DNA from: a virus
DNA length: 64,000 nt
IMG/VR virus record: IMGVR_UViG_3300045988_027877
Location: 1-64,000 of that record
Direction: 5' to 3' (one strand)
The position numbers were made by a program, and so were the translations under genes. Shown in pieces: positions 3,676 to 64,000 of the stretch. The notes under the pieces are model-generated. The model made no database searches and was not told where the DNA came from. It saw nothing but the letters and a program-made list of their open reading frames with translations. Within the stretch, counting starts at the first letter, position 1. Each line of letters starts with the position of its first letter.

Positions 3676-3915
3676 ATGTTAGTGAACATTAATACAGAAT
3701 TAGGTATGACGATATACGATCCAGAACTAGCAGAGATAATTAAAGAGCGTACTCCGGTTGATATAGCTGGAACATCTTACTACATAGAACCGGCTAGAGG
3801 AGGTTCTTGTGATGGTTGTGAGTTTAATGGTAAGAAGTGCCCTTAGAGAGCTATTACTTTTTGCACTTCTAATGGTGGAAATATACTGATTAAAGCGGAA
3901 CCACAGAGTAAATAA
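3676..3915 (+). CDS. small Cys-rich protein, paralog of 3480..3674 (one in-frame TAG)
   Basis: Manual translation gives MLVNINTELG...YYIEPARGGSCDGCEFNGKKCP[TAG]RAITFCTSNGGNILIKAEPQSK with TAA stop. The Cys pattern aligns with the upstream paralog only if TAG at 3844-3846 is read through. Confidence 0.5.
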
Positions 3916-3949
3916 TACGTTATAAGGGAATAAACTAAGTTAAAATATT

Positions 3950-4300
3950 ATGGAAGATAAAGTACTAGAAACAGTAGTTGACGGCATTAAGTGGAATATG
4001 TTAAAGGATGTGTTGGTTAAACCACTGCCTGCAATTATGGTTACTAAGGAGTTTACAGAACAAGTACCTAACGGTAAAGTAGATGAAGAAGGATTTAACG
4101 AGTATGATACTAAGACAGAGATAAAAGAGGTAGAATCTGATTGGGCTACTGGTATCGTACTAAAGATTCCTTCACATCTAAAGGATGTTGAGTTCAAAGT
4201 AGGTGATACAGTTGCTTATAATAAGAAATTTGCAATGTATTTTGACCTAGTAAAAGATACTCAGTTAGTGAAACCTTATGATCTTATTGCCGTTAAGTAA
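3950..4300 (+). CDS. putative GroES/gp31-like co-chaperonin
   Basis: 116 aa. LVKPL...GIVLKIP...FKVGDTVAY...YDLIAVK resembles the GroES pattern (GIVL, VKVGD.V, DILAIV). Recognition by eye only. Confidence 0.45.
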   Translation: MEDKVLETVVDGIKWNMLKDVLVKPLPAIMVTKEFTEQVPNGKVDEEGFNEYDTKTEIKEVESDWATGIVLKIPSHLKDVEFKVGDTVAYNKKFAMYFDLVKDTQLVKPYDLIAVK

Positions 4301-4332
4301 TATGTCTATTAAATATGTTTAACATATTGAGA

Positions 4333-4361
4333 GAGCTCGACGAAAGTCGGGCTTTCTTTTT
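4333..4361 (+). terminator. rho-independent terminator
   Basis: agctcgac-gaaa-gtcgggct (8-bp stem including one G-U, GNRA loop) followed by ttcttttta. Confidence 0.6.
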
Positions 4362-4374
4362 ATATATTAATTAA

Positions 4375-4410
4375 TTGTTAACAAATGTTAAAAGCTATTA
4401 ACAATTTTAA
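4375..4410. promoter_or_regulatory. second phased T(G/A)TTAA repeat array
   Basis: TGTTAACAAA (4375), TGTTAAAAGC (4385) and TATTAACAAT (4395) at exact 10-bp phase, plus a degenerate fourth copy. Shares TGTTAACAA with the array at 3028-3090. Confidence 0.45.
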
Positions 4411-4517
4411 CATTCTAGCGTTTATTAGGCATATGGAAAAATTAATAGTTGTGGGTCTCTGCTTTTCCATGATATGGCTTGCCATATGGGGACTCGGTAA
4501 TAAAAATAGAGATTAAT

Positions 4518-4898
4518 ATGAAGTACACTTTTAATAGAGATTTTGGCTTTTTCAAAGCAAACGATAGCCTTACTTGGGATGAAGAACTCGGTGCTTTTAC
4601 TATGGATGTAAAAGACGAGAATGGTTTTAGATCTGCAATGCTTGATGAGAGAACAGCTGAAGACATGTACAGTGAAGGTATTTTGTCAGTTGGTATCGAA
4701 CCAAGAGATAATAAGATTGATAAAACTGTTGAGTTTATTGACACTCTTCTTGATACTTATGCTAAGGACTACGAAGAGATGAAGAAAAAGGCTGATAAAG
4801 GTGAAGTTCAACCGTGTGTTAAGGTTGAAGCTGAAACCGTTTATTATAATCTTACTAAGGTATTAACTAGAATCAAAGACGAATTGACCAATGAATAA
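4518..4898 (+). CDS. hypothetical protein
   Basis: In-frame ATG within track ORF 4479..4898 (MKYTFNRDF...); TAA stop. Confidence 0.5.
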   Translation: MKYTFNRDFGFFKANDSLTWDEELGAFTMDVKDENGFRSAMLDERTAEDMYSEGILSVGIEPRDNKIDKTVEFIDTLLDTYAKDYEEMKKKADKGEVQPCVKVEAETVYYNLTKVLTRIKDELTNE

Positions 4899-5283
4899 AT
4901 TAGTAAAAGCGGTATCTAAATCCGAATTACTAATGGAATTCTTAAAAAGTCTTAATGGTATACTTGACTTAACTAATAGGGAAATGGAGTTGTTAGCCTG
5001 CTTAATAGAGTTAGATGTTAACACTCCTAGACTCCCTAACATTGATAGGAATGTAATATCTACTGAGAATAGAAAGTATGTTAATCGTACTTTAGGCATT
5101 ACTCCGGATAATTTAAGTAGGTACATAGCTAAGTTTAAGGCTTAGGGTATACTACAGAAAGGTAGAGGAGAGAATGAAGTACATGTTAATAAAGCTTTGA
5201 TTCCAGAGATAATCGGAGATAGAGTACAAGTAACAATAATACTAAAAGTAAAGAAAGATGAAGATGAGATCACTGCTAATTGA
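4891..5283 (+). CDS. putative winged-helix DNA-binding regulator (one in-frame TAG)
   Basis: LGITPDNLSRYIAKFKA[TAG]GILQKGRGENEVHVNKALIPE looks like a MarR-type recognition helix plus wing. The wing is encoded only if TAG at 5143-5145 is sense. TGA stop at 5281. Confidence 0.45.
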
Positions 5284-5644
5284 TGCAGGTTCAATCATAC
5301 TTTGGAAAGACTATAACATACTAAACAGATTATGGCACAAATTAAGGGGTAAAGCATTGGCATTCAACAGGTTCTCTGTAGTAGGGCAGAGAACCGAGCT
5401 CCTTACTTCAGATGCACTTACTGATGTTATAGTATATGAACCCATCAAAAAGTATAGTAAATCAGAGAGTAACAAACTAAGATGTATATCATATAATTTA
5501 GCTTCTACTAAGGATTGGAATGAAGTAGTTACTGTGATTAACCTGATTAGACCAAATACTCTAAATATTGACAGTAGTGTTGAGAAATGTAAATACTACA
5601 AGAAAGTTGACTGGAATGAGAAACTAGACGAGTATATATACTAA
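5258..5644 (+). CDS. hypothetical protein
   Basis: 128-aa ORF with TAA stop. Confidence 0.45.
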   Translation: MKMRSLLIDAGSIILWKDYNILNRLWHKLRGKALAFNRFSVVGQRTELLTSDALTDVIVYEPIKKYSKSESNKLRCISYNLASTKDWNEVVTVINLIRPNTLNIDSSVEKCKYYKKVDWNEKLDEYIY

Positions 5645-5822
5645 ATTAAGTAATAAGTATAATATACCATATCAAGTAATAGAAGTAATATGCAACAGTC
5701 CATTTAAGTTCGCGAATCAATCTATAAGTAATTTAGACCCTAAACCCGTCATGTTTGCTTACTTAGGTAAAATAAAGATAAAGAAACGTTATGAAGAAGA
5801 TGCCAAAAGTAGATGCGTATGA
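5616..5822 (+). CDS. hypothetical small protein (one in-frame TAG)
   Basis: Manual translation gives MRN[TAG]TSIYTKLSNKYNIPYQVIEVICNSPFKFANQSISNLDPKPVMFAYLGKIKIKKRYEEDAKSRCV with TGA stop. It fills a gap that otherwise looks empty. Confidence 0.35.
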
Positions 5823-6258
5823 CCCAGTAATATACCCTAGAATGTTGTGGGTAGCTGGACAAGTAGAAGGACTAGATAAGATATTCATCTTTAATAAGAT
5901 GGAAGATACTTCAGAAGAGGATCCAAATGGTTACAAGAGCTTACTCTATGAATCAGAGCATGGAACAGGAGTATTAGTTACAGCTCCGGTTACTAAGAAA
6001 TCTGACAGAACTAAAGGAGCTCTAGTAATAATACTAGATTGGGATGCATTACAAGGTGGAGATGAAGCACACGAGGCTGTACATGCAGCAGATTATATAT
6101 TTGATGAATTAGGCATGTATACACAGTCTTTCGCTAATCACAATGAGCAATACGCTTACTTAGTTGGATGGATAGCTGGTTGCATTAGTAAAACAATAAT
6201 AAAATTAAAACAATATGACACACGAAGAGAGTCTGATGATGTGGAAGATAGAGCTTGA
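5791..6258 (+). CDS. hypothetical protein with HExxH motif (possible metallopeptidase)
   Basis: 155 aa containing GGDEAHEAVHAADYIF (HEAVH). Confidence 0.4.
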   Translation: MKKMPKVDAYDPVIYPRMLWVAGQVEGLDKIFIFNKMEDTSEEDPNGYKSLLYESEHGTGVLVTAPVTKKSDRTKGALVIILDWDALQGGDEAHEAVHAADYIFDELGMYTQSFANHNEQYAYLVGWIAGCISKTIIKLKQYDTRRESDDVEDRA

Positions 6259-6625
6259 CAACTTTAATAAGTTAGGTACAGACAAGGCTTCCAAAGATAT
6301 TAAGAAACTATATGAAGTACTTGATAAGGTAATTACAGCTGGTACTATTACTTACGAGGATTTTACTAAGGATATGATAGATGAATTGACTACTTTAATG
6401 GTTGAGGCTGGTAAAGAGGGAAAAGAGCTCGATAGAGCTACTGAAGTTGATACTATTTGCAAACGTTTAACTGAGAAGTATGAAGCGAAATATAACGAAG
6501 GAGAGTCTGTAGAAGGAGATCCGGAACTTTCAACAGATAATTCACAGATACAGGACGAATCGGGAGTATGTGAACCCGAATGTGCCTCTGAAGAGAGCAG
6601 AGGAGATACTCCAGAGATTGGTTAA
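6215..6625 (+). CDS. hypothetical acidic protein
   Basis: 136-aa ORF; an alternative in-frame ATG is at 6236. Confidence 0.45.
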   Translation: MTHEESLMMWKIELDNFNKLGTDKASKDIKKLYEVLDKVITAGTITYEDFTKDMIDELTTLMVEAGKEGKELDRATEVDTICKRLTEKYEAKYNEGESVEGDPELSTDNSQIQDESGVCEPECASEESRGDTPEIG

Positions 6626-6657
6626 GGAAGATTATTTAGGTTATAGAATATAATAAC

Positions 6658-6984
6658 ATGGAAAAGATAATTATAAGCAAATCAGGTTTTATGGTATTTG
6701 ATACTGAAACCAACGTAGTAAGAAGACCCATTGACCTTTACTTTACTAATAGAGTAGCAAGAGTAGATAAAGGAGGGCAAGTAATCACTGATGATGAAAT
6801 AATTGATGTAGAGCCTAACAGTTATGTGACCGTATTTAATGCATATGACGAAGCAGGGTATACTAGAAGTAAAGTAGTTGTTATTAGTGATCCAGCCACA
6901 GTTCATGATCTAGACGAGTTCTACACTGAAACTAGAGAAGGATTAAAATCTGAAGAATACAAAACATACAATGAAGCTGTTTGA
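6658..6984 (+). CDS. hypothetical protein
   Basis: 108-aa ORF that overlaps the next gene. Confidence 0.45.
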   Translation: MEKIIISKSGFMVFDTETNVVRRPIDLYFTNRVARVDKGGQVITDDEIIDVEPNSYVTVFNAYDEAGYTRSKVVVISDPATVHDLDEFYTETREGLKSEEYKTYNEAV

Positions 6985-7501
6985 TATACTTGGTGGTAAA
7001 GTAATAATTCATTCGGACGCCTTAGGTATCCCATGTTTTAAAAAGATATGGGATGCCGATAAGGCAGACAAAGAGCACGCTACTAAAGTAATCAGTTACA
7101 TAGTATTGAAGAACAAATGGGATAGTCCATATGTACTTAGTATGAACTCTGATTCTATAGAGACTAAGCTCAAAGAAGAATTATTCAATGACGTCAACTA
7201 CAGTCTTACTGATGATGAACTGCTTTGTGAAGAGCAATATAAGCAATTCTGCGATACTAACCTACTTAAGATGTTACGTAATATGCGTCGTAAACTAGAC
7301 AGTTTTAGCGATTACTATGAACAATCTCTAGGTGAGGAACTAGATGAAAAGAAGATCGAGAAGTACTTAGCTGGGTTCGAGAAGGTAAAAGGATCCTATA
7401 TTACTTTAGATTTCTTGGAGAAAGCAGTTAAGACAGAAGAGCTTACAACATCTAAGGTTAAGGGTGATTCTAAGATCAATCCTTATGAGTTGGCAAAATA
7501 A
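6971..7501 (+). CDS. hypothetical protein
   Basis: 176-aa ORF with no TAG. It is the last sizeable gene before the tRNA, endonuclease and terL. A small-terminase role is possible from position only. Confidence 0.45.
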   Translation: MKLFDILGGKVIIHSDALGIPCFKKIWDADKADKEHATKVISYIVLKNKWDSPYVLSMNSDSIETKLKEELFNDVNYSLTDDELLCEEQYKQFCDTNLLKMLRNMRRKLDSFSDYYEQSLGEELDEKKIEKYLAGFEKVKGSYITLDFLEKAVKTEELTTSKVKGDSKINPYELAK

Positions 7502-7749: not shown

Positions 7750-7826
7750 TGGGGTATAACGTAATTGGCAGCGTCGCCGGCTCTAACCCGGTATGATTTG
7801 TGTGGGTTCGAATCCTACTGCCCCAA
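7750..7826 (+). tRNA. suppressor tRNA, anticodon CUA (reads UAG); acceptor stem resembles tRNA-Gln
   Basis: Hand-folded cloverleaf:
- acceptor tggggta / tgcccca (U1-A72)
- D arm acgt-aattggca-gcgt
- anticodon arm gccgg-CT[CTA]AC-ccggt, anticodon at 7783-7785
- 9-nt variable region
- T arm gtggg-ttcgaat-cctac
- discriminator A, with encoded CCA at 7827-7829. Confidence 0.85.
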
Positions 7827-7843
7827 CCAATTGATTTTTTACT

Positions 7844-8485
7844 ATGTCGTACAGAGATATTGATCCTAAATTAGCAGGTATATATATATTCAAAAATAAT
7901 ATTAACAATAAGTGTTATATAGGACAAGGAGTATCGTTGAGAAAAAGAATAAAACATCATTTTAGTAATATAAAGACTAAACGTTACGATTTACCACTAT
8001 ATAAGGCTATTGAGAAACATGGCATTCATAACTTTACTATAGATATATTAGAATCATTTATTCCTGATACTAGTCTAACCTTAGAGGAATTAATTAAGAA
8101 GTTAGACGATTTAGAAATAAAGTATATCGAGTTATATAAAGCTTATACGGAAGGTTATAACTGTACTAGAGGTGGAGATTATGGAGTTTTAGGGTTGAAG
8201 ATGACTAAAGAACAGAAGCAAAAGATTTCTGAAATATCTAAACAAAGAGCTCAAAATTACTATAAGCCTATCTACTTATACAATATAAAGGATAAATCTA
8301 TTATATATGCAATTAGTGTAACTCATGCCGCTAATATAGTAGGCTTTCATAGATCTTGTATTATAAGATGTGCCAAAGGAGAATATAACGAGACTCATGG
8401 ATATTTAATTGCTTATACAGAAGAGGAATTAAATACAAAAATACACTCTTATAAGAGGAGTAAGTATAATAGTATAAAGAGTTAA
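7844..8485 (+). CDS. GIY-YIG homing endonuclease (free-standing, TAG-free)
   Basis: N-terminal AGIYIFKNNINNKCYIGQGVSLRKRIKHHF is the GIY-YIG motif. 213 aa with no in-frame TAG. The TAA stop lies 2 nt before the terL ATG. Confidence 0.8.
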   Translation: MSYRDIDPKLAGIYIFKNNINNKCYIGQGVSLRKRIKHHFSNIKTKRYDLPLYKAIEKHGIHNFTIDILESFIPDTSLTLEELIKKLDDLEIKYIELYKAYTEGYNCTRGGDYGVLGLKMTKEQKQKISEISKQRAQNYYKPIYLYNIKDKSIIYAISVTHAANIVGFHRSCIIRCAKGEYNETHGYLIAYTEEELNTKIHSYKRSKYNSIKS

Positions 8486-8487: not shown

Positions 8488-10539
8488 ATGGTAGATTTCG
8501 AGAAATAGATCAAAAATAGTGACAAGTTTAGAGGCCCAGCGCTATAGTATTTAGCTACTGGGCATTATTGTTAGTACCCTGAAGGAACCTCAGAATTCTT
8601 CGCGTACTGGGATGAATAGATGGATAGAAGTAAGTATGGTTATACTGCTGATGATGGAGACTTTATCAGTGGGTATAACTATTTTTATTTAAACTTCTGT
8701 CCTATTCAGAGAATCATCTATAACACTATTACTAATGCAGATGGTTCTACTACGATAAAGAAAACACGTGATCTACAGTTTCCTGACTTCTATGACTATG
8801 ACTATTACTTCTTCTAGGCAGTAGAACAAGCTGAAACAGAAGGTAAACACTTGTGTGCATTAAAGAGTAGACGTAAAGGTTACTCATATAAGAATGCTGC
8901 TATGGCGTGTCGTAATTACTATCTGTTTGCAGGTAGTAAGACATATATCTATGCTAGTAATAAGCAGTACCTTACTGAGGATGGTATACTTACTAAGGCT
9001 TGGGACTACATGGACTTCATAGACAAGAATACAGCTTGGGGTAAGAAGAGATCTGTAAATACTTAGATGCGTAAACGTGCTGGTTTCTATACTAAGGACG
9101 AGTATGGTAATGAGGTTGAATTAGGCTTTAAATCAGAGATTATTGGTGTTACTTTGAAGGATAATCCAGACGTAGTACGTGGTAAAGCAGGTAAGCTTAT
9201 TATATTCGAAGAAGCTGGTTCTTTCTCTGAATTAGGTGCAGCATGGCAGATTGCTAGACCGTCTGTAGAACAGGACGGTATGGCGTTTGGTACTATGATC
9301 GCATTCGGTACTGGTGGTGATGAAGATAGCCATTTTGAGACTCTTAAAGATATGTTCTATAACCCAGATGGTTACAACTGTCTAGGCTTTGATAACATAT
9401 GGGACGAGACTCCATCTGATAAGAAGTGTGGATTCTTTATACCACAGTATACTAACATGGACTTCCGTGATGATAAAGGTAACCGTCTGTATATGGATGT
9501 AGATGGTAACACATTACGTAAGAAATCCCTAGAGTATATACTAACAGATCGTAGAAAAGTAATAGAGAATGCTACCAACTCTGTAGCAGTAGATAGATAC
9601 GTCGCAGAACACTGTATAACGCCCTAGGAGGCATGTTTGGAGTTCGGAGGTAATATCTTCCCTAAGAAGGAGTTACAAGAGCAATTAGCCAAGATTAGGA
9701 TCAATAAACACCTAAGTAATCATAAGTAGGTAGGTGACTTAGTATGGAATACAGATGGATCCCTCAAATGGGTTATTAAGAAGTTAGGAGATATAACTCA
9801 TTACCCATTGAAGAGAGATGATGACCCAACTGGTTCTATAGTAATATGGGAACACCCAGTACCAGATGCCCCTATAGGTTTATACATACTTGGGGTAGAC
9901 CCATATGACCACGACTAGTCAGGTACTAATTCATTAGGCTCTACATTCGTTTATAAGCGATTCTAGAGCTTTGAGAATTATTATGATATAATAGTCGCTG
10001 AATACACTGGAAGGCCTTAGACGGCAGAAGAATACTACGAGAACCTGCGTAAACTAGCAATATACTACAATGGTAGGATAATGTATGAGAATGAGCGTAA
10101 AGGTCTATTCCCATACTTCACAGCTAAGCATTGTGACTACTTACTTGCTGATCAACCAGATATTATATCAGATATAGTTGGTAATTCCAAAGTATAGAGA
10201 AAGAAGGGTTGTCACATGAATAAACAGATTAAGCAATGGGGTGAAGGCTTAATCAAAGACTGGTTAAATGAAGAACAAGCACCCGGTAAGAAGAACTTAC
10301 ACAACATACTATCAGAGCCGCTATTAGAAGAACTTATAAGCTATAATGACACAGGAAACTTCGATAGGGTCATGGCGTTGATGCAAGTAATGATCTATAG
10401 AGAACAGCTCTATAATCTCAAGGTTAAAGAAAAGAAAAAAGAGAATAAGAATAGGGTGCTGTTTGAAGGACCTATCTTTACTCAAGCGTGGTTTCATGAC
10501 GATGAAGTCACAGATAATTTAGAAGCATATATGTTTTAA
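8488..10539 (+). CDS. terL: terminase large subunit (12 in-frame TAG)
   Basis: Track fragments 8620, 8851, 9067 and 10216 share a frame with ATG 8488. I traced 8488-10539 and found only TAG interruptions. Motifs: FYLNFCPI, ALKSRRKGYS (Walker-A-like), LIIFEEAG (Walker B), GVDPYDHD (nuclease). TAA stop. Confidence 0.85.
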
Positions 10540-10541
10540 CT

Positions 10542-13046: not shown

Positions 13047-13426
13047 TGAAGGTAATACAGAATAAACTAATACCATTTAAGGGTTACTCATACATTAACC
13101 TGTTTGGTTTGATATTTACTAGAGATAAAAGTAAAATATCAGCTAAGTCCTACAACCATGAGAAGATTCATCTCAAGTAGATGTAGGAGATGTTATGGAT
13201 ACCATTCTATCTATGGTATGGCATTGAATACATTCTTATAAGATTATGCAGACTATTTTCTAAACAAAGTACTGTTTACCACGATGTATCTTTTGAAGAA
13301 GAAGCATATAATAACCAAGATGATTACACGTATCCTGAAACTAGAAAGCATTACTCTTGGTTGAAGTATCTTAAAATTGGTAGCTTTAAGGAAAGATGGA
13401 CAGAAACGCGTTTAAACAAAGGATGA
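13046..13426 (+). CDS. hypothetical membrane-associated protein (two in-frame TAG)
   Basis: MKVIQNKLIPFKGYSY...NHEKIHLK[TAG]M[TAG]EMLWIPFYLWYG... The ATG overlaps the portal stop; TGA stop. Confidence 0.5.
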
Positions 13427-14652
13427 AAGCATTTAAGACTTATCGGGAGTAGAATCCCGGTAAGACTTATTTTGACTTCAAAGCCTATGCAGATGGAGGA
13501 GAAATACCACCATCTAACAAGCCTGTAATACCTGAAGAGCCTCAACCATATAAGGGTAAATTATATAAGGATAGATATGGTCGTAAGTATACTGAAAGTC
13601 AGTTGGATGATTATTATGACAATAGTACTGATGAAATTGATAGATTCACTGGGAAACCATTCGTCAGAGGATTGAAGCCTGTAGGTGATATTGAAGATGC
13701 TGCTAACATGACTCCAGTTGGAGATGCAATATCAGCATATGATATATACAGTTCTATTAAGTAGTCAGACTGGGAAGGTGCTGGATTAGCTGCAATGGGG
13801 TTGATACCGTTTATGCCTACCGGTGGTAATAAACTGTTCAGAAGATCTGCAACTAAACCAAAGAGTACTTATATCCCTAAAGTAGATCCTAATTATAAGT
13901 AGAAAGTAATTAGTAAAGCCCTTAATGAACAAGAGGCTTACAGCACCATGCCTTAGAGCGTTGTAGAGGAGATTACGGATCAGCGTAACAGAAGTTATGA
14001 GTTGATGCAAGAACCTTACGCTAGAAAGAGGGCAAAACAAGTTGATGAACAATACGGTACAGATTATCTTAAAGTGTACGATAGTATGCTAGATAAGTAC
14101 GTAGACATCAACGAATATTTCAAACTTCCAGAACCACAGTATAAATAGATGGAAAGACCAACTATAGCTGCTCAGGTAACTCCAGCTAAGGGTACTACCA
14201 TGTATTTTAATAGAGATATAATAAAGACTCCTGAAGATATTCCTAATAGTGTAGTACTTCATGAAATGGGTCACTTGGTTGACGGTGCAGCTGGAATGAA
14301 TAATGAATTCTTAAAGAAGCTTGGAGATAAGAGTAAGTTTATACCTTTTAATCAAGCCAAGACGATGTATCCGAATATGACAAGAGAAATGTATAATAAC
14401 ATATTACAGGGTACTGAAATCAAGAGTTACATGAATCAGTTTAGAAGCTATCTGCAAGAGAAGGGTAAACTGAATAAGGGAAATTATACGGGAAGCTATA
14501 AGAATCTTAGACAAGACTTATTAGAAGCTCCTAGAGAAAGCTTTAACAACATTAAAGCAATCTTTAATCTCTATAGAAGTCCTAAGTTGTTTAACGAGGA
14601 CTTTAATATGATTCCTGTAGTTAGTACTGACTCAAATCGCGATATGGTATGA
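13396..14652 (+). CDS. putative virion zinc metalloprotease (HEMGH), 5 in-frame TAG
   Basis: Frame traced from ATG 13396 into track ORF 14149..14652. Contains VVLHEMGHLVDGAAG (HExxH). TGA stop in an ATGA overlap. Confidence 0.55.
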
Positions 14653-15032
14653 AAACAATATCTAAGGCTAATAATTACTTAGAAACTGATTTCTTGAAGT
14701 ACGCGAGAGCAATCCTAACTCAGGAAGACTATGTAAATAAGTTCAAAAATGGTGGTACTTATGATCTTATCCTAGATGACGAGTCTATGGAGCAAATAAG
14801 AAAAGAAGAAAATAAACCTCTATTTAATCCAAAAAGACATTCCGAATACTCTCCAGAACTATCAGAAATAGAAGTGCGCTCTTTAGAAGACCCCGACTTA
14901 TTTACTAAAGAAGAATTAGTTGAGATTCTAAACACAGTAATACTTAAATATATAAATTGGGAGGACCTATCAAATGAGCGACCTGATAGACACAGCACTG
15001 ATACTACCTCAGTATCCGATACCTAGTTATAA
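14649..15032 (+). CDS. hypothetical protein
   Basis: Track ORF 14649..15026 ends at TAG and continues for one more sense codon before a TAA stop at 15030-15032. Confidence 0.45.
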
Positions 15033-15207: not shown

Positions 15208-15224
15208 TCTAATTATATATAATT

Positions 15225-16388: not shown

Positions 16389-16423
16389 TAATAAACTAAA
16401 TAAATTAAAATTACTAGTATTTT

Positions 16424-49826: not shown

Positions 49827-49843
49827 TTAAACAAATACTTATT

Positions 49844-56300: not shown

Positions 56301-57476
56301 GCAAGTGGCGGATTAGATTACGTTGATCCATATCTAGGTATAACCGCTGCTGGTGGATCGTATGGAGGTCATAGTCAAGAGAAACCATATTATGCATATA
56401 ATGATGCATACAGTATCCAACCTGATGCATAGATGTATGCAGTAGATTCTACTTACTCTATAAGTAATCTTAAGTCTGGTAATCGAATCAGATATTCTGG
56501 TACTAAGACAGCTAATGAAATAACAGATAGTTGGACTAGTTTCAAAGCTGCTGATTACTTAGATGTAGATTCATCTCACGGAGATATAACTAATCTAAAG
56601 AACTTCAATGATTAGTTATTATTCTGGTAGAAGGATGCTGTAGGTATAGCTGCTGTTAGAGATAGATCTTTGATTACAGATAACGATCAAGCATCACTAG
56701 TATTAGGTACTGGTGGAGTACTAGATAGATATGATTATGTAACTACTTCTAATGGTTCTGATACACCTAATGATAAGAGTATCATTGGTACTCCTAGTGG
56801 TTTGTATTGGTATGATGATAGTAAGAATGAAGTATGTTCATATACTAATCAAGTACAGAAGTTATCTAAAGCGAAGAGCGTACAATCATGGTTTAACGAT
56901 AATACTAAGAAAGCTAAAGTAAGTATATACGATCCTAAGTTCAATGAAGTACAGATGGGATTTGAGGATAAGGATCTAGTGTACAATGAATAGTTACAGC
57001 AGTTTTCATCATTCTATACACTTAATCCAGATAACTGCTTGGCATTCCCAGATAGACTCTTGTATATCAAAGACTAGATGATACAAGAAAATGCAGATTT
57101 TCCGTTAAATAAGATGCGTTCTAAGTTATAGATTATAGTTAATAAGGATCCATTACTTACTAAAACTTATGATAATGTATTCTTTAGTGGAGAGTTCGAT
57201 AATGTTCAAGAGATGATGTAGGATATTAAGTTTACTACTAAGACTCAAGAAGGAACTATCTTCAAAGATGATACTGAAGTAAGTAATCCGATAGAACAAA
57301 GAGAAGATACATATAGATTTGCTGTGGGTAGAGAGAAAGAAAGTAAAGATGATATGTCATTACCGGGTAGAATGAAAGGTAAATACATGATATGTGATTA
57401 CTTAATTAACTGTGACAATCAGCGTAACTTCAAACTCCCTAATATTAACACAACATATAGATATTCATTAGTATGA
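53334..57476 (+). CDS. large tail protein, about 1380 aa (many in-frame TAG)
   Basis: Track fragments 54051, 54969, 55521, 56433 and 56670 all share the frame of ATG 53334. I traced 53334-53520, 54243-54975 and 56943-57240 and found only TAG. TGA at 57474. Confidence 0.6.
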
Positions 57477-59101
57477 GAAAAGTAAATAAAAAGAATTGTT
57501 TTTCAGGAGGTGGTACTTCTTATAACCCACAGACACTACAGTCCCCGTATCTATAGACGGATTTCAGTAAACAATTACCTACACAATTAACAGCTCCAGC
57601 ATCTGTACAGCAATATGCACCTGGTAATTATAATCCGGGTAGTTCTGCTAATCCATTGTTTGGTTCTAAAGTATAGAACTTGTTTGGTGGAGCTAGTGCA
57701 GGAGGTCAAGGAATAGGAGGCATAGGTCAAGCTGGAGATGCTATTAACTCTATGATAGGTAATGTAACTGCTCCTGCTACAGCTACTACTAAAGGAGAAG
57801 CTAACATGCAAACTGTAACTAATACAATCGGTGGAGCAGCTAAGGGAGCAGCAGCCGGGTTTGCAGTTGGTGGACCAGTAGGAGCAATAGTTGGCGGAGT
57901 TGCTGGTTTAGCATCTGGTATAACAGGTAATAAAGGTAAAGTAAATCTACAATCTAATCCATACGATGATAATATTACTGTTAATTACGGTACTGGTATC
58001 AGAGGTGGAAAAAAGAATAGAAGAAAGATAGAGAGACAAAGAGACCAAGCTATAGCTAATGCTAGAAGTAATCAGGCTAGTTTAGCTATGGGTTATTAGA
58101 ATGAATAGGAATTCTATCAAGACTACGATACAGATATACAGACAATGGCTTACGGAGGTACAGCTAGTAGTCTGGCGTATGTAGATGATGGAGAGGTACT
58201 CAATACTCCACAAGGAGATATAGTTAATGTACCAGAAGAAGGTAAACCAACAGATAGTAATTTGGTTAACTTACCAGAAGGTACTAGAATACTTAGTGAT
58301 AAGAGAAAAGTACCGGGAAGTAAAGAAACGTTTGCACAGATGGGTAAAAGATTAATGTCTAAGAAAACAAGTAAGTCTAAAGATAAGTATGCAGAGAATG
58401 CAGCTATGTTAAACTAGATGCATGACTAGATGATATACGATAGACTGTTTGCTATACAAGAAGGAACTAAAAAGAAAAATGGGAAGACCAAGAAGTTTGC
58501 AAAAGGAGGAAGTGTAGGTAATTTGATCACAGATCTAACAGCTTTAGCTCCTACTATATCTAATATGTATGCAAAGCCAGAGTCTTTCAATGCAGTATAC
58601 AATCCATATGAATCACAGATAAATCAGACAATGGCTAATCGTAGATTTGACATTAGTCCAGCTAAAAGAACTATCCGTGAGAATAGAACAATTAGTAACT
58701 ATAATGCAGCTAATTACAATCCTAATACTGGAGCTAATCTAGCGTATAGAATTCAGAGTCAGGTTGCAGCTAACAAAGCTATATCCGATTTATATTCTAC
58801 AGCTAGTAATGTTAATAACCAGTATAAAGCAGATTATGCTAGTACTTTGAATAGTTTAGGACAGCAAAGAGTTAATGCTACTAACATGGCAGTAGATATG
58901 AATGCTAGAAGCAGAGCTGCTGCTAGAAACATTCAGAGAACAGCTTTGAGTCAATTGAGTCAGTACGCACAGAACAAACAACTTATGAAGAATCAGAAGT
59001 CTAGAGATATGGCTATGTTAGAAATGTATGGACCATTCTTGGAAGCTGGTTATAAGTCAGGAGATTATGCATCATTCATGAAACAATTTAGAAAGGGATA
59101 A
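57473..59101 (+). CDS. Gly-rich internal/tail protein (6 in-frame TAG)
   Basis: Fragments 57680, 58145 and 58430 share the frame of ATG 57473. Gly/Ala-rich segment GGAAKGAAAGFAVGGPVGAIVGGVAGLASG. TAA at 59099. Confidence 0.5.
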
Positions 59102-59102
59102 T

Positions 59103-60902
59103 ATGGCAGCAAATATGTACGATCAAGCCGCGTAGGCTTAGTTTATTAATACTTATGTGCCTATTAATTTTGGAGAATTATATAGAATAGGTGCGGCACA
59201 AAAACAAGCAGTAGATCAAGCAGCAGAACAATTTACTACACAGTTACAGAAGTTTGGAGAATTTAGATCACCTTCCAGAGTAGATACAGAAAATTATTAC
59301 AATATGACTATTGGCAGAGAAGACTTTCAGAATGCCATTAATCAAATGGTATCTAATCCCGACTATATGAAGGACGCTAGTAATAGAGCTAAACTACAAT
59401 CATTAATAAATAGTGTAGATTATGCTGCTCTGTCTCAGTTGAAGGAAAGTGCAGACTATTAGAGAATGGGTCTACAGACGAGAGCTAAGATGAAAGCAGA
59501 AGGTAGGCTCAAAGACAGCTGGGACAAGTCAGATATAGCTAACTATGATACTCTAGGTACTGGTAAAATATTTGATGATATTACTCCAGTAGCTTATATG
59601 AATCTGAATGAACTCAGTACTCCTTACTTTAATGATCTGAAACCGGGTTTCTTAGGTACGGATTATGTGAATGGTACTAGATATGTAGTAACTGGTAATA
59701 ATATGGAAGATCTTATGGCAGTAGCTACAGCTAAGTTCAATGATTTAATTGATACTCCACAAGGTCAGAAGTACTTTGAAGAGTATTTAGCTATGAATAA
59801 CGGTGATGCAAATGCTGCCAAATCTCAATTCATTAATGCAGTAGCTCAATCACAAATTGATAGAACTCGTAGACCTAAGTATGATGTAGATCCTGCTTTC
59901 ATAGAACAGTTGAGATATAGTTTAAAGGCAAAGGCTGCTGGAGCTTCAGAAGCAAGTCAAGTATTGCCAGACTTATCTAGAATACTGGCTACTACTACTG
60001 TACAAAATAACTTAGCTACTCTTGGAGGTTTAACTCCTGAAGAGAGATCCGCAGTTGCTAGTGGACAAGCTAATTCTGAAGTATATCAGAAAGCAAGTAG
60101 AAATATGAGCAACAATCTCAAGACAGCATGGAATAGCTTGAGTAAAGCTTCTGGAATAAACAGTGCTTCTAGAAAACTATTAGACATGATCAGTCAGCCT
60201 TTATCTAAAGAAGTAGACACTAGCCTACTTGTAGAAGGTGGTGGAGAAGCTCTGGGTAAAGATGCAAAGCTTACTAATAGTACAGCTAATATGACACTTG
60301 GCGCAGATATGACGTTTGGATTACTTGGATATGAGAATGGAGCTCTAGGTTATGCAATGAGTAATATGCAGAATGCTTCAGATGAAAAACAAAAAAAAGC
60401 ATGGAAAGATAGATCTGTGGCAATGGCTACTATTCAACAAGCTTGGTACAACGATCAATTCAGAGATGTTATTGTTAAAGGATCTGGTCAAGTACTTAGT
60501 GATAATAATGAAGTATATCACAAACGTAAAGTATATATACCTATAGATCAGTTAAGAAACATTGGTTTCGAATCAATTAGTAAAGGAGACTTCTCTAAGT
60601 TAATAGGTAGTAAAGTAGTATCTCTGGGAGATATTATAGATAAACAATAGATAGAGATCACACAAGAATATGATCCAAAAACTGGAGAGGTACTAAAAGG
60701 AGAAACTACTAAGAAGTTAACTAGAAAGAAACTAGATGATTCCGATCTGTATGTAGAGTTTGATGCTACTTATCCTCTACAGATAGGTAATAATGAAGCT
60801 ACTATTACCAGAAATGCCAATTACGAACGACAAGTCAGAACACTTGGAACTAAAGAAAAATATTCATAGGCAGAAGATTCAGCTAACAGATATCTAAGAT
60901 AA
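59103..60902 (+). CDS. hypothetical virion protein (5 in-frame TAG)
   Basis: Fragments 59157 and 59466 share the frame of ATG 59103. The end was traced to TAA at 60900. Confidence 0.5.
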
Positions 60903-60903
60903 T

Positions 60904-63900
60904 ATGGAAGATAACAAATTCATGGTAGGCGCTCCCAAAATGAACGCCATGACTTATGGTTCTATGGATACCGTACAAAATATACCTACTACTTCTGAGA
61001 GGAAATAGTAGGTATAGGAGTATGATTATGATATACCTTCTAACTTAGCAGATATATATACTAGAAAAGGCAGTACTGAGACTCCAGAAGAGAAAAGCAA
61101 CGACTATAACTGGTCTAAGATACTTAACGTTGCTACAGGTATTGCCTTTACTCCTAATGCGGGTATTGCAATAAAAGGAGGTTACGATATATATAATAGC
61201 CAGTTAGGTCAATCTGTTGTAGAGAAAGCAGTAGAAACAAATATCAGATCCTTAGAAGGTGATTTAGCCAGAAAAGAACTACGTACTATGCAAAGTATAG
61301 AGTTCTTGAAAGACTATGAAGAGAAACTACAAAGATTAAATCAGATACAAAGTACAGGAGAAGGTGATCCATAGGAAGCAACTCAGTTATAGACGTATTT
61401 GGATCAGAATGCTTAGACTTATGAGTTACTGATAAGAGGTAACAGTAAGTTAGCTCCTCTGTACTACGATGGATTTGAAACAAACAGTATTACTGGAGAG
61501 AAAACAACTTCCATAGGATTGCAAGTAGATCCTAAGAAAGTACCATTATGGGATAGACTTATGCTTAGTATATCTACTATGTTTGATAACAAAGCTGAGG
61601 CATACGAGGAGTACGTTAAAACTGGTTATGGTGATGCTGTATTAAATATCAAGCCTAAAGAAAGTGTATGGAATAATCCTGATAGAACTGGTATTATAAA
61701 CAGTTTGTAGAAGTTATATGATGATAGTATAACATCTCAAGAACTTAAGGTACAAAAGATTAAAGACAGACAAGGTATCTTAAAAGAAGGTAGCTGGTTC
61801 TTTGATCCTAATCAAATATCTCCAGAGTTTAGAGAAAGAGTAAACAATAATGAGTTTGCTTGGGGAGATCTAGAATCTTATCCTTACGCAATACCGCAGT
61901 TAGGTTCTTCTTTAGGAGAAATTGCTTCTACTGTAGAAACTGCTACTCTTGGTAGACTAGTAAGTATGGCTGCAAAAACTGCCGCTAAGAGAGGAAATCC
62001 CTATTCAGCTGCTTTGTTAGCTATCGGGGAGTTTGGTTTAAATGCAGCTAACAGTTATTATCAGCGTACTCAAGAAACCAATGCTGAAGTATTTGATGCT
62101 TACTTGAATAACATAGTAAATCAAATGGATTCAGGTAATCTGGATGTAGATAGAATATTAGATCAAGGTATCGAGAAACTACAGGCTAGAGGGATTAATA
62201 CAGATGAAATGACCATGCCATAGATTCTTGAAGATATGCTTCTGTACAATATCAAAACAGATGATCCTAACTTTGAGAATATAAAACTTAGTGCATACAA
62301 TGGTCTGGATAATATCTTTACTTCTAACATGGCTTTAGGAGTATGGGATGCCATGGATATAGCTTTATACTCTTATGGAGGTAAGCTTGCTGTGAAATCA
62401 GCAAAAGAGTTACTCAAGCAGGGAGGTAAAGGTTTAGCTAAAGCCACTGGACTTACTAAGGTTGCGGATATAGCCGATAAGTTTATAGATAACAGAATAA
62501 ACAAAGCTCTATACAGAATGGCTTCTAAAGACGTATTTAAAGCCAATAAGTATAGAGATGTACTTAATACTGTGGTAGGTTTAGGTACTAAACTTGGAGT
62601 AACCGCATTCGGAGAGGGTACAGAAGAAGGACAGCAGTACTTAATTCAAAGAGATTACGAATTAAGTTCTAAGTATGATCCTAAGAAGATGACATTGCTG
62701 GATGCATTCTTTAAGAACTTCCAATATGGTGCAGAAGCCAACATGGCTCTGATGGGTTTACATCCTGATGAAGCTTTGAACAATGACAAAGAACTAGAGC
62801 AGAACATGAAAGTTGGTGCTCTTATAGGTTTGTTAATGGGTGGTGCTGGTACTACTATATCTGATGGTCATCAACTTATTAGAGATGTGAAATCTAATAA
62901 GATGTTACGTAACATGGCTGCTTATGACATTAGTAATAAAGAAGAAGATATTAAAGTAGACAGATGGTATAATGCAGTAAAGAAGGGTTATACCCAAGAT
63001 GTGATTCAGAATCTTCAAGACATTAGAGATAGATTTACTCCAGAAGGTCTTACTCAAGAAGATATAGATGAAGATATTAAAAAAGCTAGACAATTAGAGA
63101 GTATATACTATAATCCTAATGTATCTGAGAACTTAGAACAATTAGGAATTAAAGTAGGCAGTGAGGAGCATAAGACGTTTGCTAAGAATGCAATGAAAGC
63201 GTATGACTTAGAACGCGTGTTTAACTCTCAAGCTAAGGAAGCCAACAAGAAACTTGCTGAAAAAGTAAATCAAATATATAGTTCTGATGAGTTTAGAAAC
63301 TCAGTGGATGAGTATTGGGATAATTTGTCTGATGCAGAAAGAGAAGCATGGGGAGTTAAAGAGAACCTAATTAGTATAGTAAGAGATGCTCAGTAGACAT
63401 TCACTACTCTTAATGTTCTGAATAAGCTGAAGAGACAGCTCAAAGACATGCAATCCTTTATTGCTCAAGCAAAGAAGAACGGTCTGGATGTTAGTGACGA
63501 GAATATAGCTTCTGTAGTATATCACATTAATCGTAAACAGAAATAGTTAGAAGATGCTACTAAGAAGGATAAGAAGATGTTCAAATAGCTTAAAGATATA
63601 TTTGGAATCAATACTGATCCAGAACTAGAGCAATTAATAGCAGATGAAAATATACTTGTTGGATTACTTAGTAAGGCTGTAAACCGACGTGCTGCATATT
63701 AGAACGGAGTAGTACTCAGAACTGATATGAACAGACGTGCTGACTTCAACATTCGTAACTGGTCACAATTATCAGAACAAGAACAACAAGAAGTACGTGA
63801 TAGATATACAAAAGAAGCACAAGACAACGGTCAAGAAGCTCCTAGCGATAGATCTATAATTGCTAGATACAATAGAGATGTACAGCAAAATGATATTATA

Positions 63901-64000
63901 GACGAGTCTGTAAATGCTGCTAGAAAGTATGCTAATGATATTATTAAGGCAGATCTTGATAGATATACTTAGAATGACAGATCTTATAGTGAAGTAAGCG
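60904..64000 (+). CDS. giant virion/cargo-type protein, N-terminal part (truncated by the window end)
   Basis: Fragments 61519, 61966, 62236 and 63727 share the frame of ATG 60904. All gaps were traced and contain only TAG. The frame is still open at 64000 (over 1030 codons). Confidence 0.6.

What the first reader, a model, noticed from the sequence alone, without database searches (positions are those of the whole stretch)
3676..64000. TAG is a sense codon across the plus-strand block (stop-codon reassignment, probably TAG to Gln)
Seen directly: consecutive track ORFs fall in one frame and are separated only by TAG. Counts are terL 12, portal 8, the 30340..38280 ORF 38, and the RT 4. After merging, every gene ends in TAA or TGA, often in ATGA/TAATG overlaps.

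Conserved motifs are completed only when TAG is read through. Examples are the endolysin N-terminus, the winged-helix wing at 5143, the Cys-rich paralog at 3844, and the phosphoesterase motif SDQ[TAG]G.

Established knowledge: crAss-like and other gut phages are known to use TAG to Gln. Calling genes with the standard code fragments or misses most late genes here; 49844..50410, for example, disappears entirely.
Basis: partly seen in the sequence, partly recalled or inferred. Interest (0 to 1): 0.8.

Follow-up and report, generated by a model that had tools for sequence, protein, structure and literature searches.

The report
Gut phage reads TAG as glutamine
This is a common human-gut crAss-like phage whose late genes use the stop codon TAG to encode glutamine, with the phage's own suppressor tRNA next to them; it is real, but already published for this phage lineage.

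Summary

- **Observation:** Fifty plus-strand genes (3676-63999) contain 195 in-frame TAG codons. Reading TAG as sense raises plus-strand ORF coverage from 51% to 91%; TGA or TAA as sense gives 53-55%.
- **Amino acid:** Where close relatives differ at these TAG sites, 113 of 193 aligned codons are CAA or CAG. In distant homologs, including cultured standard-code phages, TAG aligns to Gln as often as the window's own Gln codons do (22.4% vs 23.4%). Gln beats every other amino acid by 75 log-likelihood units.
- **Mechanism:** A single tRNA with anticodon CUA lies at 7750-7829, at the boundary between TAG-poor genes (1.45 TAG per 1000 codons) and TAG-rich late genes (10.6 per 1000). Its acceptor and T-arm match bacterial tRNA-Gln.
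- **Identity:** The window is a Buchavirus-like member of Suoliviridae (Crassvirales), with TerL 98% identical to cr52_1. RefSeq relatives already carry full-length CDSs and a tRNA-Gln annotation.
- **Prior work:** Yutin 2021, Borges 2021 and Peters 2022 describe, analyse and proteomically validate TAG-to-Gln recoding in crAss-like phages.
- **Possibly new, both tentative:** a 5' skew of TAG within genes, and swapping of suppressor-tRNA alleles.

The parts
7750..7829 (+). Amber suppressor tRNA with anticodon CUA; derived from tRNA-Gln; CCA is encoded
   Evidence: ARAGORN reports anticodon cta. Rfam tRNA match scores 50.7 bits, E = 6.5e-08. The sequence is 100% identical to cr109's tRNA, which RefSeq annotates as tRNA-Gln. 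Its T-arm plus acceptor 3' half occurs only in tRNA-Gln(UUG) in 3 of 3 bacterial MAG hits. It is atypical in having A73 and a 9-10 nt variable loop.
7844..8485 (+). GIY-YIG homing endonuclease between the tRNA and terL; contains no TAG
   Evidence: PHROG homing-endonuclease families match at E = 7e-23. None of its 5 Gln sites is TAG. Present in cr109, absent from cr52.
3676..7501 (+). TAG-poor plus-strand block upstream of the tRNA; 2 sense TAGs, at 3844 and 5143
   Evidence: Together with the homing endonuclease (3676-8485) it has 1.45 TAG per 1000 codons, and 8% of Gln sites are TAG. Position 3844 is CAG in the three Buchavirus relatives. Position 5143 is TAG in the three Buchavirus genomes and Lys in cr115 and cr50. 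No release factor or aminoacyl-tRNA synthetase family was detected.
8488..63999 (+). TAG-rich late block (packaging, head, tail, lysis, virion proteins); 193 sense TAGs
   Evidence: 10.6 TAG per 1000 codons, and 25% of Gln sites are TAG. TAG share differs strongly between genes, p = 7e-9.
8488..10539 (+). Terminase large subunit, 12 TAG
   Evidence: phrog_6681 matches at E = 7.6e-151 in a single stretch, aa 14-659. 98% identical to cr52_1 TerL. Position-by-position table.
10542..13046 (+). Portal protein, 8 TAG
   Evidence: phrog_6547 matches at E = 2.2e-160 in a single stretch, aa 5-818. The TAG at aa 644 is Gln in all 8 other genomes compared.
16424..17893 (+). Major head protein, 1 TAG in 489 codons
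   Evidence: The syntenic gene is annotated as major head protein in cr109 and cr113. Its TAG share is 0.08.
26972..30343 (+). Phosphatase-like virion protein, 8 TAG, including SDQ[TAG]G at 29048
   Evidence: Position 29048 is CAA in cr52 and TAG in cr109 and cr113.
30340..38280 (+). Giant 2646-aa protein (annotated 'internalin-like' in relatives), 38 TAG
   Evidence: TAG share is 0.39, enriched at binomial p = 0.002.
38597..39091 (+). Endolysin (Peptidase_M15_3), 3 TAG; the start may be 38690
   Evidence: Pfam PF08291 matches at E = 4.5e-22, profile 2-108 of 108, spanning the TAGs at aa 38 and 58. TAG share is 0.6.
41053..42978 (+). TAG-free tail or receptor-binding-type gene; part of it is 95% identical to Bacteroides phage crAss002
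   Evidence: None of its 23 Gln sites is TAG, binomial p = 0.0026. Window 41419-42603 is 95% identical to crAss002.
45329..46354 (+). Reverse transcriptase, 4 TAG
   Evidence: Pfam RVT_1 matches at E = 9.1e-17, aa 79-266, spanning two TAGs.
47077..47691 (+). Lysis-regulatory or spanin-like protein, 7 TAG among 13 Gln sites
   Evidence: The syntenic gene in cr52 and cr109 is annotated 'lysis regulatory protein-like'. TAG share is 0.54, p = 0.024. This matches the spanin enrichment reported by Borges et al..
49844..50410 (+). 188-aa gene with 8 TAG; undetectable under code 11
   Evidence: The largest code-11 ORF is 51 aa. TAG share is 0.5.
43..2974 (-). Minus-strand genes with no in-frame TAG
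   Evidence: None of the 5 ORFs has an in-frame TAG, and 4 of 5 end in TAA. In cr52_1 the whole minus-strand replication block has 9 TAGs in 6922 codons.

Best explanation
The window is about 60% of the genome of a crAss-like phage (Crassvirales, Suoliviridae, Buchavirus-like). In this phage UAG is decoded as glutamine.

**How it most likely works.**
- The phage carries one tRNA with anticodon CUA, derived from tRNA-Gln. It sits at the head of the late gene block.
- Once made, the tRNA is presumably charged with Gln by the host glutaminyl-tRNA synthetase. It then outcompetes host release factor 1 at UAG.
- About a quarter of all Gln positions in the packaging, head, tail and lysis genes are written as TAG, and those genes then yield full-length proteins. 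True termination uses only TAA and TGA.
- Genes expressed before the switch contain almost no TAG and can be translated by the unmodified standard-code host. These are the minus-strand replication block and the plus-strand genes upstream of the tRNA.
- In-frame TAGs therefore act as a translational gate that holds back late and lysis proteins until the suppressor accumulates.

**Shown here:** TAG is a sense codon equivalent to CAA/CAG; the tRNA exists and is Gln-like; TAG use is strongly skewed to late genes, with lysis genes among the most TAG-rich.

**Inferred:** charging by host GlnRS, competition with RF1, and the timing function.
For: - **ORF coverage:** 51% under code 11 and 91% only with TAG as sense. 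A 2646-codon ORF with 38 TAGs and no TAA/TGA has P about 1e-103.
- **Profiles:** TerL and portal profiles each match in one stretch across all their TAGs.
- **Codon exchange:** TAG exchanges with CAA/CAG at 113 of 193 changed sites in close relatives, and in each relative separately.
- **Amino-acid inference:** Gln is best by 413 nats (close relatives), 59 nats (other subfamilies) and 6 nats (isolates alone), or 75 nats for all distant homologs. TAG-to-Q is 22.4% against 23.4% for true Gln codons in cultured standard-code phages.
- **tRNA:** tRNA(CUA) at 7750-7829. Its T-arm and acceptor segment is found only in bacterial tRNA-Gln(UUG). A tRNA(CUA) is present at the syntenic locus just upstream of terL in cr52, cr109, cr113 and cr53 (annotated tRNA-Gln there), and elsewhere in the locus in cr273.
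- **TAG density:** 1.45 per 1000 codons upstream of the tRNA and 10.6 per 1000 downstream. In cr52_1 the replication block has 9 TAGs in 6922 codons.
- **Host uses the standard code:** a 1.2-kb segment is 95% identical to crAss002, which grows on Bacteroides xylanisolvens.
- **Literature:** PMC7886860, PMC9523058 for mass-spectrometry proof of TAG = Q in two crAss-like phages, and 10.1101/2021.08.26.457843.
Against: - There are no expression, charging or proteomic data for this genome.
- The tRNA departs from canonical tRNA-Gln: A73 instead of G73, no G10, and a 9-10 nt variable loop. Similarity to E. coli tRNA-Gln is only marginally the best in a small reference panel, 0.70 against 0.68.
- The gate is not absolute. 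Two sense TAGs lie upstream of the tRNA (3844 and 5143), and cr52_1's replication block has 9.
- Several late genes have no TAG at all.
- The base after TAG shows no suppression-specific signal beyond that of other NAG codons.
- No release factor, aminoacyl-tRNA synthetase or RF1 inhibitor was recognised, so how RF1 is outcompeted is unknown.
Confidence: 0.9

Rival explanations
1. TAG is Gln unconditionally and has no regulatory role. The skew towards late genes is a by-product of mutation pressure, gene age or expression level, not a timing gate.
For: TAG-free late genes exist, and some are probably highly expressed or recently acquired: 15225-16388, 20177-21157 and 41053-42978. The major capsid gene has 1 TAG in 489 codons. 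A few TAGs do occur in early blocks. The +4 context resembles that of other NAG codons.
Against: There is a seven-fold density step exactly at the tRNA. The replication block of cr52_1 writes only 4% of Gln as TAG, against 25-30% in late genes. Lysis genes are among the most TAG-rich, as reported independently for this lineage. TAG tends to lie early within genes.
Confidence: 0.25
2. TAG is read as an amino acid other than Gln, for example Tyr, Ser, Leu, Trp, Lys, Glu or pyrrolysine (ARAGORN labels the tRNA 'Pyl').
For: ARAGORN labels any CUA anticodon as Pyl. cr113's homologous tRNA has a long, class-II-like variable arm and weakly resembles tRNA-Ser or tRNA-Leu in a small panel. At some individual sites the distant homologs have K, E or S.
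Against: Empirical-profile likelihood ranks Gln first by 75 nats (distant homologs) and 413 nats (close relatives). Alignment of TAG to Y, W and L is 2.5% or less. Single-step neighbours of TAG are rare in close relatives: TAC 2, TAT 1, TGG 2, TCG 1, TTG 0, AAG 6, GAG 6. By contrast CAA, two steps away, occurs 67 times. cr113's own TAGs exchange with CAA/CAG at 58%.
Confidence: 0.02
3. The TAGs are genuine stops. On this view the region is degraded or mis-assembled, or yields only fragments with occasional low-level readthrough by host tRNAs.
For: Under code 11 the sequence does give 84 ORFs of 60 aa or more.
Against: 60% of TAG positions are conserved as TAG in three independently assembled RefSeq genomes. 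TerL proteins 94-98% identical occur on many contigs of about 100-105 kb. The frames stay free of TAA/TGA for up to 2646 codons. Conserved domains span the TAGs. A dedicated tRNA(CUA) is present.
Confidence: 0.01
4. Suppression is provided by the host, through a host suppressor tRNA or a host that itself uses code 15, and the phage tRNA is dispensable.
For: Some TAG-recoded crAss-like phages have no detectable suppressor tRNA (PMC7886860; 10.64898/2026.08.21.746148). No tRNA(CUA) was found in the 42 kb of cr115 that was fetched, although it has in-frame TAGs.
Against: This genome and its closest relatives (cr52, cr109, cr113, cr53) all keep a tRNA(CUA) at the same locus despite allele turnover. 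Early genes avoid TAG, which would be unnecessary in a code-15 host. The sequence shared with crAss002 points to a standard-code Bacteroides host.
Confidence: 0.04

Closest known systems
TAG-to-Gln (genetic code 15) recoding in crAss-like phages of the Delta group / Suoliviridae (Yutin et al. 2021, PMC7886860; Borges et al. 2021 preprint 10.1101/2021.08.26.457843; Peters et al. 2022, PMC9523058)
   Same: In-frame TAG in TerL, portal and other late genes. Coding density is restored with TAG as sense. TAG is equivalent to Gln. The phage encodes a tRNA(CUA). Replication genes are compatible with the standard code. The endolysin and spanin-like genes are among the most TAG-rich. Complete relatives are about 100-104 kb.
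   Different: Nothing essential differs. The window adds a quantitative per-site demonstration, and two details I did not find in those papers' text: a mild 5' skew of TAG within genes, and allele replacement of the suppressor tRNA.
RefSeq genomes uncultured phage cr52_1 (NC_055888, Buchavirus copri), cr109_1 (NC_055892), cr113_1 (NC_055896)
   Same: TerL is 98%, 94% and 92% identical respectively. Gene order is the same. A tRNA annotated tRNA-Gln lies in front of terL. Full-length CDSs are annotated across the TAGs.
   Different: The window is a mosaic. Most of it is cr52-like at 92-97%. The tRNA plus homing-endonuclease cassette and the 28-34 kb region are cr109/cr113-like, with the tRNA 100% identical and the flanking DNA 93-99%. 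About 40% of TAG positions differ from any one relative.
Classical amber suppressors derived from tRNA-Gln (E. coli supE = glnV CUG to CUA; my own knowledge)
   Same: Anticodon CUA on a tRNA-Gln-type body. The 5' acceptor strand UGGGGUA is identical to E. coli glnV. U1-A72, G2-C71 and G3-C70 are present.
   Different: It has A73 instead of G73, no G10 and about 5 extra bases in the variable loop. It is phage-encoded and serves roughly 200 sense codons in this window, not rare nonsense alleles.
TGA-to-Trp (code 4) recoded phages, and Lak, Agate or Jade phages with release-factor or synthetase 'code-change modules' (Borges et al.)
   Same: The logic is the same: a stop codon serves as a sense codon in late and lysis genes, enabled by a phage suppressor tRNA.
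   Different: The codon differs. TGA as sense does not open ORFs here, 53% against 51%. No release factor or aminoacyl-tRNA synthetase gene was recognised in the genes scanned here (3214-7501 and one minus-strand ORF), and none appears among the annotated product names of cr52_1 positions 1-100000.

Membership tests
Code-15 (TAG to Gln) recoded crAss-like phage | Conserved genes are interrupted by in-frame TAG, and coding density is restored only when TAG is sense | tested here: met
   Coverage rises from 51% to 91% with TAG as sense. TGA as sense gives 53% and TAA as sense 55%. There are 195 TAGs in 34 of 50 genes.
Code-15 (TAG to Gln) recoded crAss-like phage | TAG positions align to glutamine in homologs | tested here: met
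   113 of 193 changed codons in close relatives are CAA or CAG. Gln is best by 75 nats in distant homologs. TAG-to-Q is 22.4% against 23.4% for true Gln codons in standard-code isolates.
Code-15 (TAG to Gln) recoded crAss-like phage | Phage-encoded suppressor tRNA with anticodon CUA (frequent, but not universal in the family) | tested here: met
   tRNA at 7750-7829 with anticodon cta, Rfam 50.7 bits.
Code-15 (TAG to Gln) recoded crAss-like phage | Recoding is concentrated in late structural and lysis genes, while replication genes are standard-code compatible | tested here: met
   10.6 against 1.45 TAG per 1000 codons within the window. No TAG in the window's minus-strand ORFs. 9 TAGs in 6922 codons in cr52_1's replication block. 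The replication block itself lies outside the window.
Code-15 (TAG to Gln) recoded crAss-like phage | Peptides with Gln at TAG positions (direct proof) | not testable with these tools
   Shown by LC-MS/MS for two other crAss-like phages (PMC9523058), not for this genome.
Crassvirales; Suoliviridae; Loutivirinae; Buchavirus | TerL, portal and capsid homology, and genome synteny, with classified members | tested here: met
   TerL is 97.9% identical to cr52_1 (Buchavirus copri) and 92-94% to two other Buchavirus species. DNA is 80-97% identical and collinear over most of the window. Whether it belongs to an existing Buchavirus species was not assessed.
tRNA-Gln-derived amber suppressor | Cloverleaf tRNA with anticodon CUA | tested here: met
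tRNA-Gln-derived amber suppressor | Sequence kinship with genuine tRNA-Gln | tested here: met
   The 21-nt T-arm plus acceptor segment matches exactly only tRNA-Gln(UUG), in 3 of 3 bacterial MAG hits. E. coli tRNA-Gln is the top match in a 28-tRNA panel, but only narrowly, 0.70 against 0.68.
tRNA-Gln-derived amber suppressor | E. coli GlnRS identity set: U1-A72, G2-C71, G3-C70, G73, G10, U35 (my own knowledge of the E. coli system) | tested here: inconclusive
   U1-A72, G2-C71, G3-C70 and U35 are present. The discriminator is A73 and position 10 is A. The rules for Bacteroidales GlnRS are not known to me.
tRNA-Gln-derived amber suppressor | Actually charged with Gln in vivo | not testable with these tools
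   Inferred only from the Gln equivalence of TAG.
Pyrrolysine decoding of UAG (considered because of the ARAGORN label) | UAG positions align to Lys or Pyl contexts | tested here: not met
   TAG aligns to Q, not K. The log-likelihood for K is 80 nats worse than for Q. The presence of pylS or pylBCD genes was not specifically searched for.
Code 4 (TGA to Trp) recoding | ORFs open when TGA is read as sense | tested here: not met
   53% against 51% coverage. TGA terminates 17 genes.

The most novel reading that the evidence does not exclude
Beyond the known recoding, two details may be unreported.

1. **TAG sits early in late genes.** Within late genes TAG is placed preferentially near the 5' end. 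TAG's share of Gln sites is 38% in the first 50 codons against 23% elsewhere in the window. The odds ratio is 2.4 in cr52_1 using the depositors' own start calls. The direction is the same in all five Suoliviridae lineages examined. If real, this would mean selection places the 'gate' codons where premature termination is cheapest and most complete.

2. **The suppressor tRNA turns over quickly.** The tRNA locus is a hot spot of allele replacement. Variants of 74, 76, 80 and 91 nt have different bodies and variable arms, yet all decode TAG as Gln. In this window the tRNA travels with an adjacent GIY-YIG homing endonuclease. This suggests endonuclease-driven spread of code-switch cassettes, or diversifying pressure on the tRNA, for example from host tRNA-targeting defences.
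Probability: 0.3. Interest if true: 0.45.

Novelty: already known. Interest (0 to 1): 0.15.

Why it matters
**Practical.** Any standard-code annotation of this window shatters 34 of 50 genes into 245 pieces and loses some genes entirely. The window must be called with table 15 or a multi-code tool.

**Biological.** It is a clean example of a virus running a genetic code different from its host's and apparently using that as a timing device for late and lysis genes. That is an important idea, but it is already described and analysed for this lineage, and validated by proteomics in two other crAss-like phages. RefSeq relatives already carry the correct annotation.

**What this work adds.** Confirmation, numbers, and two small leads: the 5' skew of TAG and the turnover of suppressor-tRNA alleles.

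Tried and rejected
- **Large protein database search with TerL.** The 120 listed hits were all at least 94% identical and nearly all already full length, so they were called with an alternative code. They give no independent evidence for the amino acid. I switched to reading DNA codons in fetched genomes.
- **Two-strand stop-to-stop coverage as a per-locus code test.** It discriminates poorly at 34% GC, because TAA as sense opens many spurious ORFs. I used it only as a rough guide.
- **DGR hypothesis for the RT next to an Mtd-like tail gene.** No template/variable repeat pair was found by the repeat finder or by sensitive self-blastn. Not supported.
- **His at the SDQ[TAG]G motif.** The canonical metallophosphoesterase motif has His there (my own knowledge). 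Rejected, because cr52 has CAA at that site.
- **Non-Gln identity for cr113's long-arm tRNA.** Rejected on evolutionary grounds: its TAGs exchange with CAA/CAG at 58%.
- **Suppression-favouring +4 context.** TAG is followed by A at 52% and C at 7%, but other NAG codons look similar. No clear signal.
- **Hidden TAG stops at gene 3' ends.** TAGs are not enriched near gene ends.
- **Search for release factor, aminoacyl-tRNA synthetase or amidotransferase genes near the tRNA.** Nothing found.
- **Sigma-70 promoter scan around the tRNA.** No better than shuffled sequence, and Bacteroidales and phage promoters are not covered by that tool.

Full report
**What the window is.** The window has 34.5% G+C and a steady positive GC skew from about 4 kb onward. 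The merged terL product matches PHROG terminase at E = 7.6e-151 and the portal matches at E = 2.2e-160. Each match is a single uninterrupted stretch. By tblastn, TerL is 97.9% identical to uncultured phage cr52_1 (NC_055888, Buchavirus copri). It is 92-94% identical to cr109_1 and cr113_1, which are also Buchavirus (Crassvirales; Suoliviridae; Loutivirinae), and 91.5% identical to cr60_1, whose classification I did not look up. The DNA is collinear with these genomes at 80-97% identity. TerL proteins 94-98% identical occur on many metagenomic contigs of about 100-105 kb, so this is a common human-gut phage lineage.

**Checking the observation.** With TAA and TGA as the only stops, the plus strand carries 50 closely packed genes between 3676 and 63999. 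They contain 195 in-frame TAGs.
- Coverage by ORFs of 100 aa or more rises from 51% under code 11 to 91% with TAG as sense. TGA or TAA as sense gives only 53-55%.
- Off-frame TAA/TGA frequency is 0.086 per codon, so a 2646-codon run free of them has probability about 1e-103.
- Gene ends at TAA (32) or TGA (17) are partly built into my ORF definition. Packing supports them independently: 7 ATGA and 4 TAATG junctions, and 38 of 49 junctions overlap or leave 40 nt or less.
- TAGs are not concentrated near gene 3' ends, so they are not hidden stops.
- Under code 11 the genes fall into 245 pieces, and only 66% of coding bases are recoverable as ORFs of 60 aa or more. Gene 49844-50410 has no ORF above 51 aa.

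**Which amino acid: codon exchange with close relatives.** I aligned the window to the near-complete genomes of cr52, cr109 and cr113 and read the codon opposite each in-frame TAG (488 comparisons). The result was TAG 295, CAA 67, CAG 46, GAA 12, and 6 or fewer for every other codon. Single-step neighbours of TAG are rare: TAC 2, TAT 1, TGG 2, TCG 1, TTG 0. CAA is two substitutions from TAG, so its dominance is what synonymy with Gln predicts. In reverse, 15% of window CAG and 7.5% of CAA face a TAG in a relative, against 1% or less for all other codons. The pattern holds in each relative separately, at 57-64%.

**Which amino acid: residues in distant homologs.** I ran tblastn against six more distant genomes. 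Three are cultured phages on standard-code hosts: crAss001, Flavobacterium Fpv3 and Cellulophaga phi14:2. Gln was the top residue opposite TAG, 43 of 158. I built substitution profiles for all 20 amino acids from the same alignments. Gln explains the TAG columns best by 75 nats, by 413 nats for close relatives, and by 6 nats for the isolates alone. In the isolates TAG aligns to Q at 22.4%. The window's own Gln codons do so at 23.4%, and the other window residues checked at 6.7% or less. Site-by-site tables for TerL, portal and the capsid protein agree. For example, portal aa 644 is Gln in all eight other genomes.

All check out. One nuance: at SDQ[TAG]G, cr52 has CAA, so the residue is Gln rather than the His of the canonical metallophosphoesterase motif.

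**The decoding device.** The window holds exactly one tRNA, at 7750-7829 (+), with anticodon CUA and an encoded CCA. ARAGORN's 'Pyl' label is only its name for any CUA anticodon.
- The 5' acceptor strand UGGGGUA is identical to that of E. coli glnV.
- A genome-wide scan for its 21-nt T-arm plus acceptor 3' half returned three bacterial MAGs. In all three the match lies in tRNA-Gln(UUG).
- It is atypical in having A73 instead of G73, A at position 10, and a 9-10 nt variable loop.
- cr52, cr109, cr113 and cr53 each carry a tRNA(CUA) at the same locus in front of terL, annotated tRNA-Gln in RefSeq; cr273 also carries one, further upstream.
- No release factor, aminoacyl-tRNA synthetase or amidotransferase was recognised in the neighbouring genes. 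None appears in the annotation of cr52_1 positions 1-100000 either.

**Where TAG is used.** The tRNA sits at a sharp boundary.
- The plus-strand genes upstream (3676-8485) have 2 TAGs in 1380 codons, which is 8% of Gln sites.
- The genes downstream (8488-63999) have 193 TAGs in 18201 codons, which is 25% of Gln sites.
- The window's minus-strand ORFs have none.
- In cr52_1 the whole minus-strand replication block has 9 TAGs in 6922 codons (4% of Gln sites), against 25-30% in late genes.
- Among late genes the TAG share is very uneven (chi-square p = 7e-9). It is high in the spanin-like gene 47077-47691, in 21191-21853, 25953-26975 and 49844-50410, in TerL and in the giant ORF; the endolysin's share is also high (3 of 5) but rests on too few sites to test. 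It is zero in 15225-16388, 20177-21157 and 41053-42978.

**Mechanism.**
- Shown: TAG is a sense codon equivalent to Gln; a Gln-type tRNA(CUA) is encoded at the head of the TAG-rich block; genes outside that block largely avoid TAG.
- Inferred: the host reads the standard code. Support for this is a 1.2-kb stretch 95% identical to Bacteroides phage crAss002 and the TAG avoidance in early genes. The tRNA is presumably charged by host GlnRS and competes with RF1, so late and lysis proteins become translatable only once the suppressor accumulates.
- The timing function is the least secure step. A few TAGs occur in early blocks, some late genes have none, and the +4 context shows nothing specific.

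**Comparison with what is known.** Yutin et al. 2021 reported TAG-to-Gln or TGA-to-Trp recoding in 243 crAss-like phages, mostly of the Beta, Delta (now Suoliviridae) and Zeta groups. They found it mainly in late genes and often with suppressor tRNAs (PMC7886860). [quoted passage not shown] Peters et al. 2022 proved Gln at TAG by mass spectrometry in two crAss-like phages (PMC9523058). RefSeq relatives of this window are already annotated with read-through CDSs and a tRNA-Gln.

**Side observations.**
1. *5' skew of TAG.* TAG's share of Gln sites is higher near gene starts: 37.6% in the first 50 codons against 23.1% elsewhere (Fisher p = 0.003), and it survives start refinement. With the depositors' own start calls in cr52_1 the odds ratio is 2.4 (p = 0.0004). 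In four other Suoliviridae lineages the direction is the same but weak (Mantel-Haenszel OR 1.4, p = 0.10). TAG lies earlier on average than CAA/CAG in 5 of 5 lineages. Start-codon miscalls could contribute, so this is tentative. I found no mention of it in the Borges preprint text.
2. *Suppressor tRNA turnover.* The window's allele equals cr109's, although the flanks are 97% cr52-like. The switch coincides with the adjacent GIY-YIG homing endonuclease, which cr52 lacks. cr52, cr113 and cr273 carry tRNAs of 76, 91 (long variable arm) and 74 nt.
3. *A TAG-free gene shared with a standard-code phage.* Gene 41053-42978 has no TAG and shares a 95% identical segment with standard-code Bacteroides phages, which suggests recent acquisition.
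4. *The RT.* The RT at 45329-46354 follows a borderline Rfam RT-17 hit and has no DGR-type repeat.

Noticed in passing
window 41053-42978 (segment 41419-42603): This 641-aa late gene has no TAG among its 23 Gln codons (binomial p = 0.0026). It contains a 1.2-kb stretch 95% identical to Bacteroides phage crAss002 (host B. xylanisolvens), and the search also returned B. thetaiotaomicron phages. It looks like a recently exchanged tail or receptor module from standard-code phages, and it is a clue to a Bacteroides host.
   Followed up: partly
window 7750-8485; L003 43287-43362; L006 44123-44213; L011 4451-4524: Suppressor tRNA alleles differ sharply among near-identical genomes at 80, 76, 91 and 74 nt; cr113's has a long variable arm. 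The window's tRNA is 100% identical to cr109's, although the flanks are 97% cr52-like. The swap coincides with a TAG-free GIY-YIG homing endonuclease that cr52 lacks, which suggests the tRNA and endonuclease move together as a cassette.
   Followed up: partly
window 8488-63999 (late genes); also cr52_1, cr7_1, cr53_1, cr273_1, cr115_1 loci: TAG is enriched among Gln sites near gene 5' ends: 38% in the first 50 codons against 23% elsewhere (p = 0.003). In cr52_1, using the depositors' starts, the odds ratio is 2.4 (p = 0.0004). Four other lineages show the same direction but weakly (pooled OR 1.4, p = 0.10). Start-call artefacts are not fully excluded.
   Followed up: partly
window 4891-5283 (TAG at 5143): A winged-helix-type regulator in the TAG-poor block upstream of the tRNA carries one TAG at codon 85 of 130. 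It is conserved as TAG in cr52, cr109 and cr113 and is Lys in cr115 and cr50. Before suppression the gene would yield a truncated 84-aa product, so it may give suppressor-dependent isoforms.
   Followed up: no
window 45247-46354: A reverse transcriptase (Pfam RVT_1, 4 TAGs) is preceded by a borderline Rfam RT-17 RNA hit (40.8 bits against a gathering score of 40.4). It follows a tail gene that relatives annotate as similar to the major tropism determinant. No template/variable repeat pair was found, so a DGR is not supported. No RT is annotated at the corresponding position in cr109.
   Followed up: partly
L003 31171-31551 (cr52_1), L010 5580-6075 (cr50_1), L012 7380-7741 (cr115_1); outside the window: Related Suoliviridae genomes encode a permuted (two-piece) tmRNA in the early block. 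cr50_1, which appears to use the standard code, has one too, so it is not tied to TAG recoding. The corresponding position lies upstream of the window's start.
   Followed up: no
L001 9489-9621 (cr109_1) and the cr113_1 TerL CDS: The RefSeq TerL CDSs of cr109_1 and cr113_1 start 132 nt downstream of the aligned start and so skip four TAG codons. Homology to crAss001 TerL begins at aa 8, so these are probably mis-called starts.
   Followed up: no
L017/L018 (cr7_1, Burzaovirus): In cr7_1, 45-57% of Gln positions in late genes are written as TAG, so TAG rivals CAA and CAG combined as the way to write Gln. This is a much more advanced state of recoding than in the window, where the share is 25%.
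   Followed up: no
window 1334-1525 (-): This is the only ORF in the window that ends in TAG under code 11. It is a 63-aa minus-strand ORF, and whether it is a real gene is uncertain.
   Followed up: no
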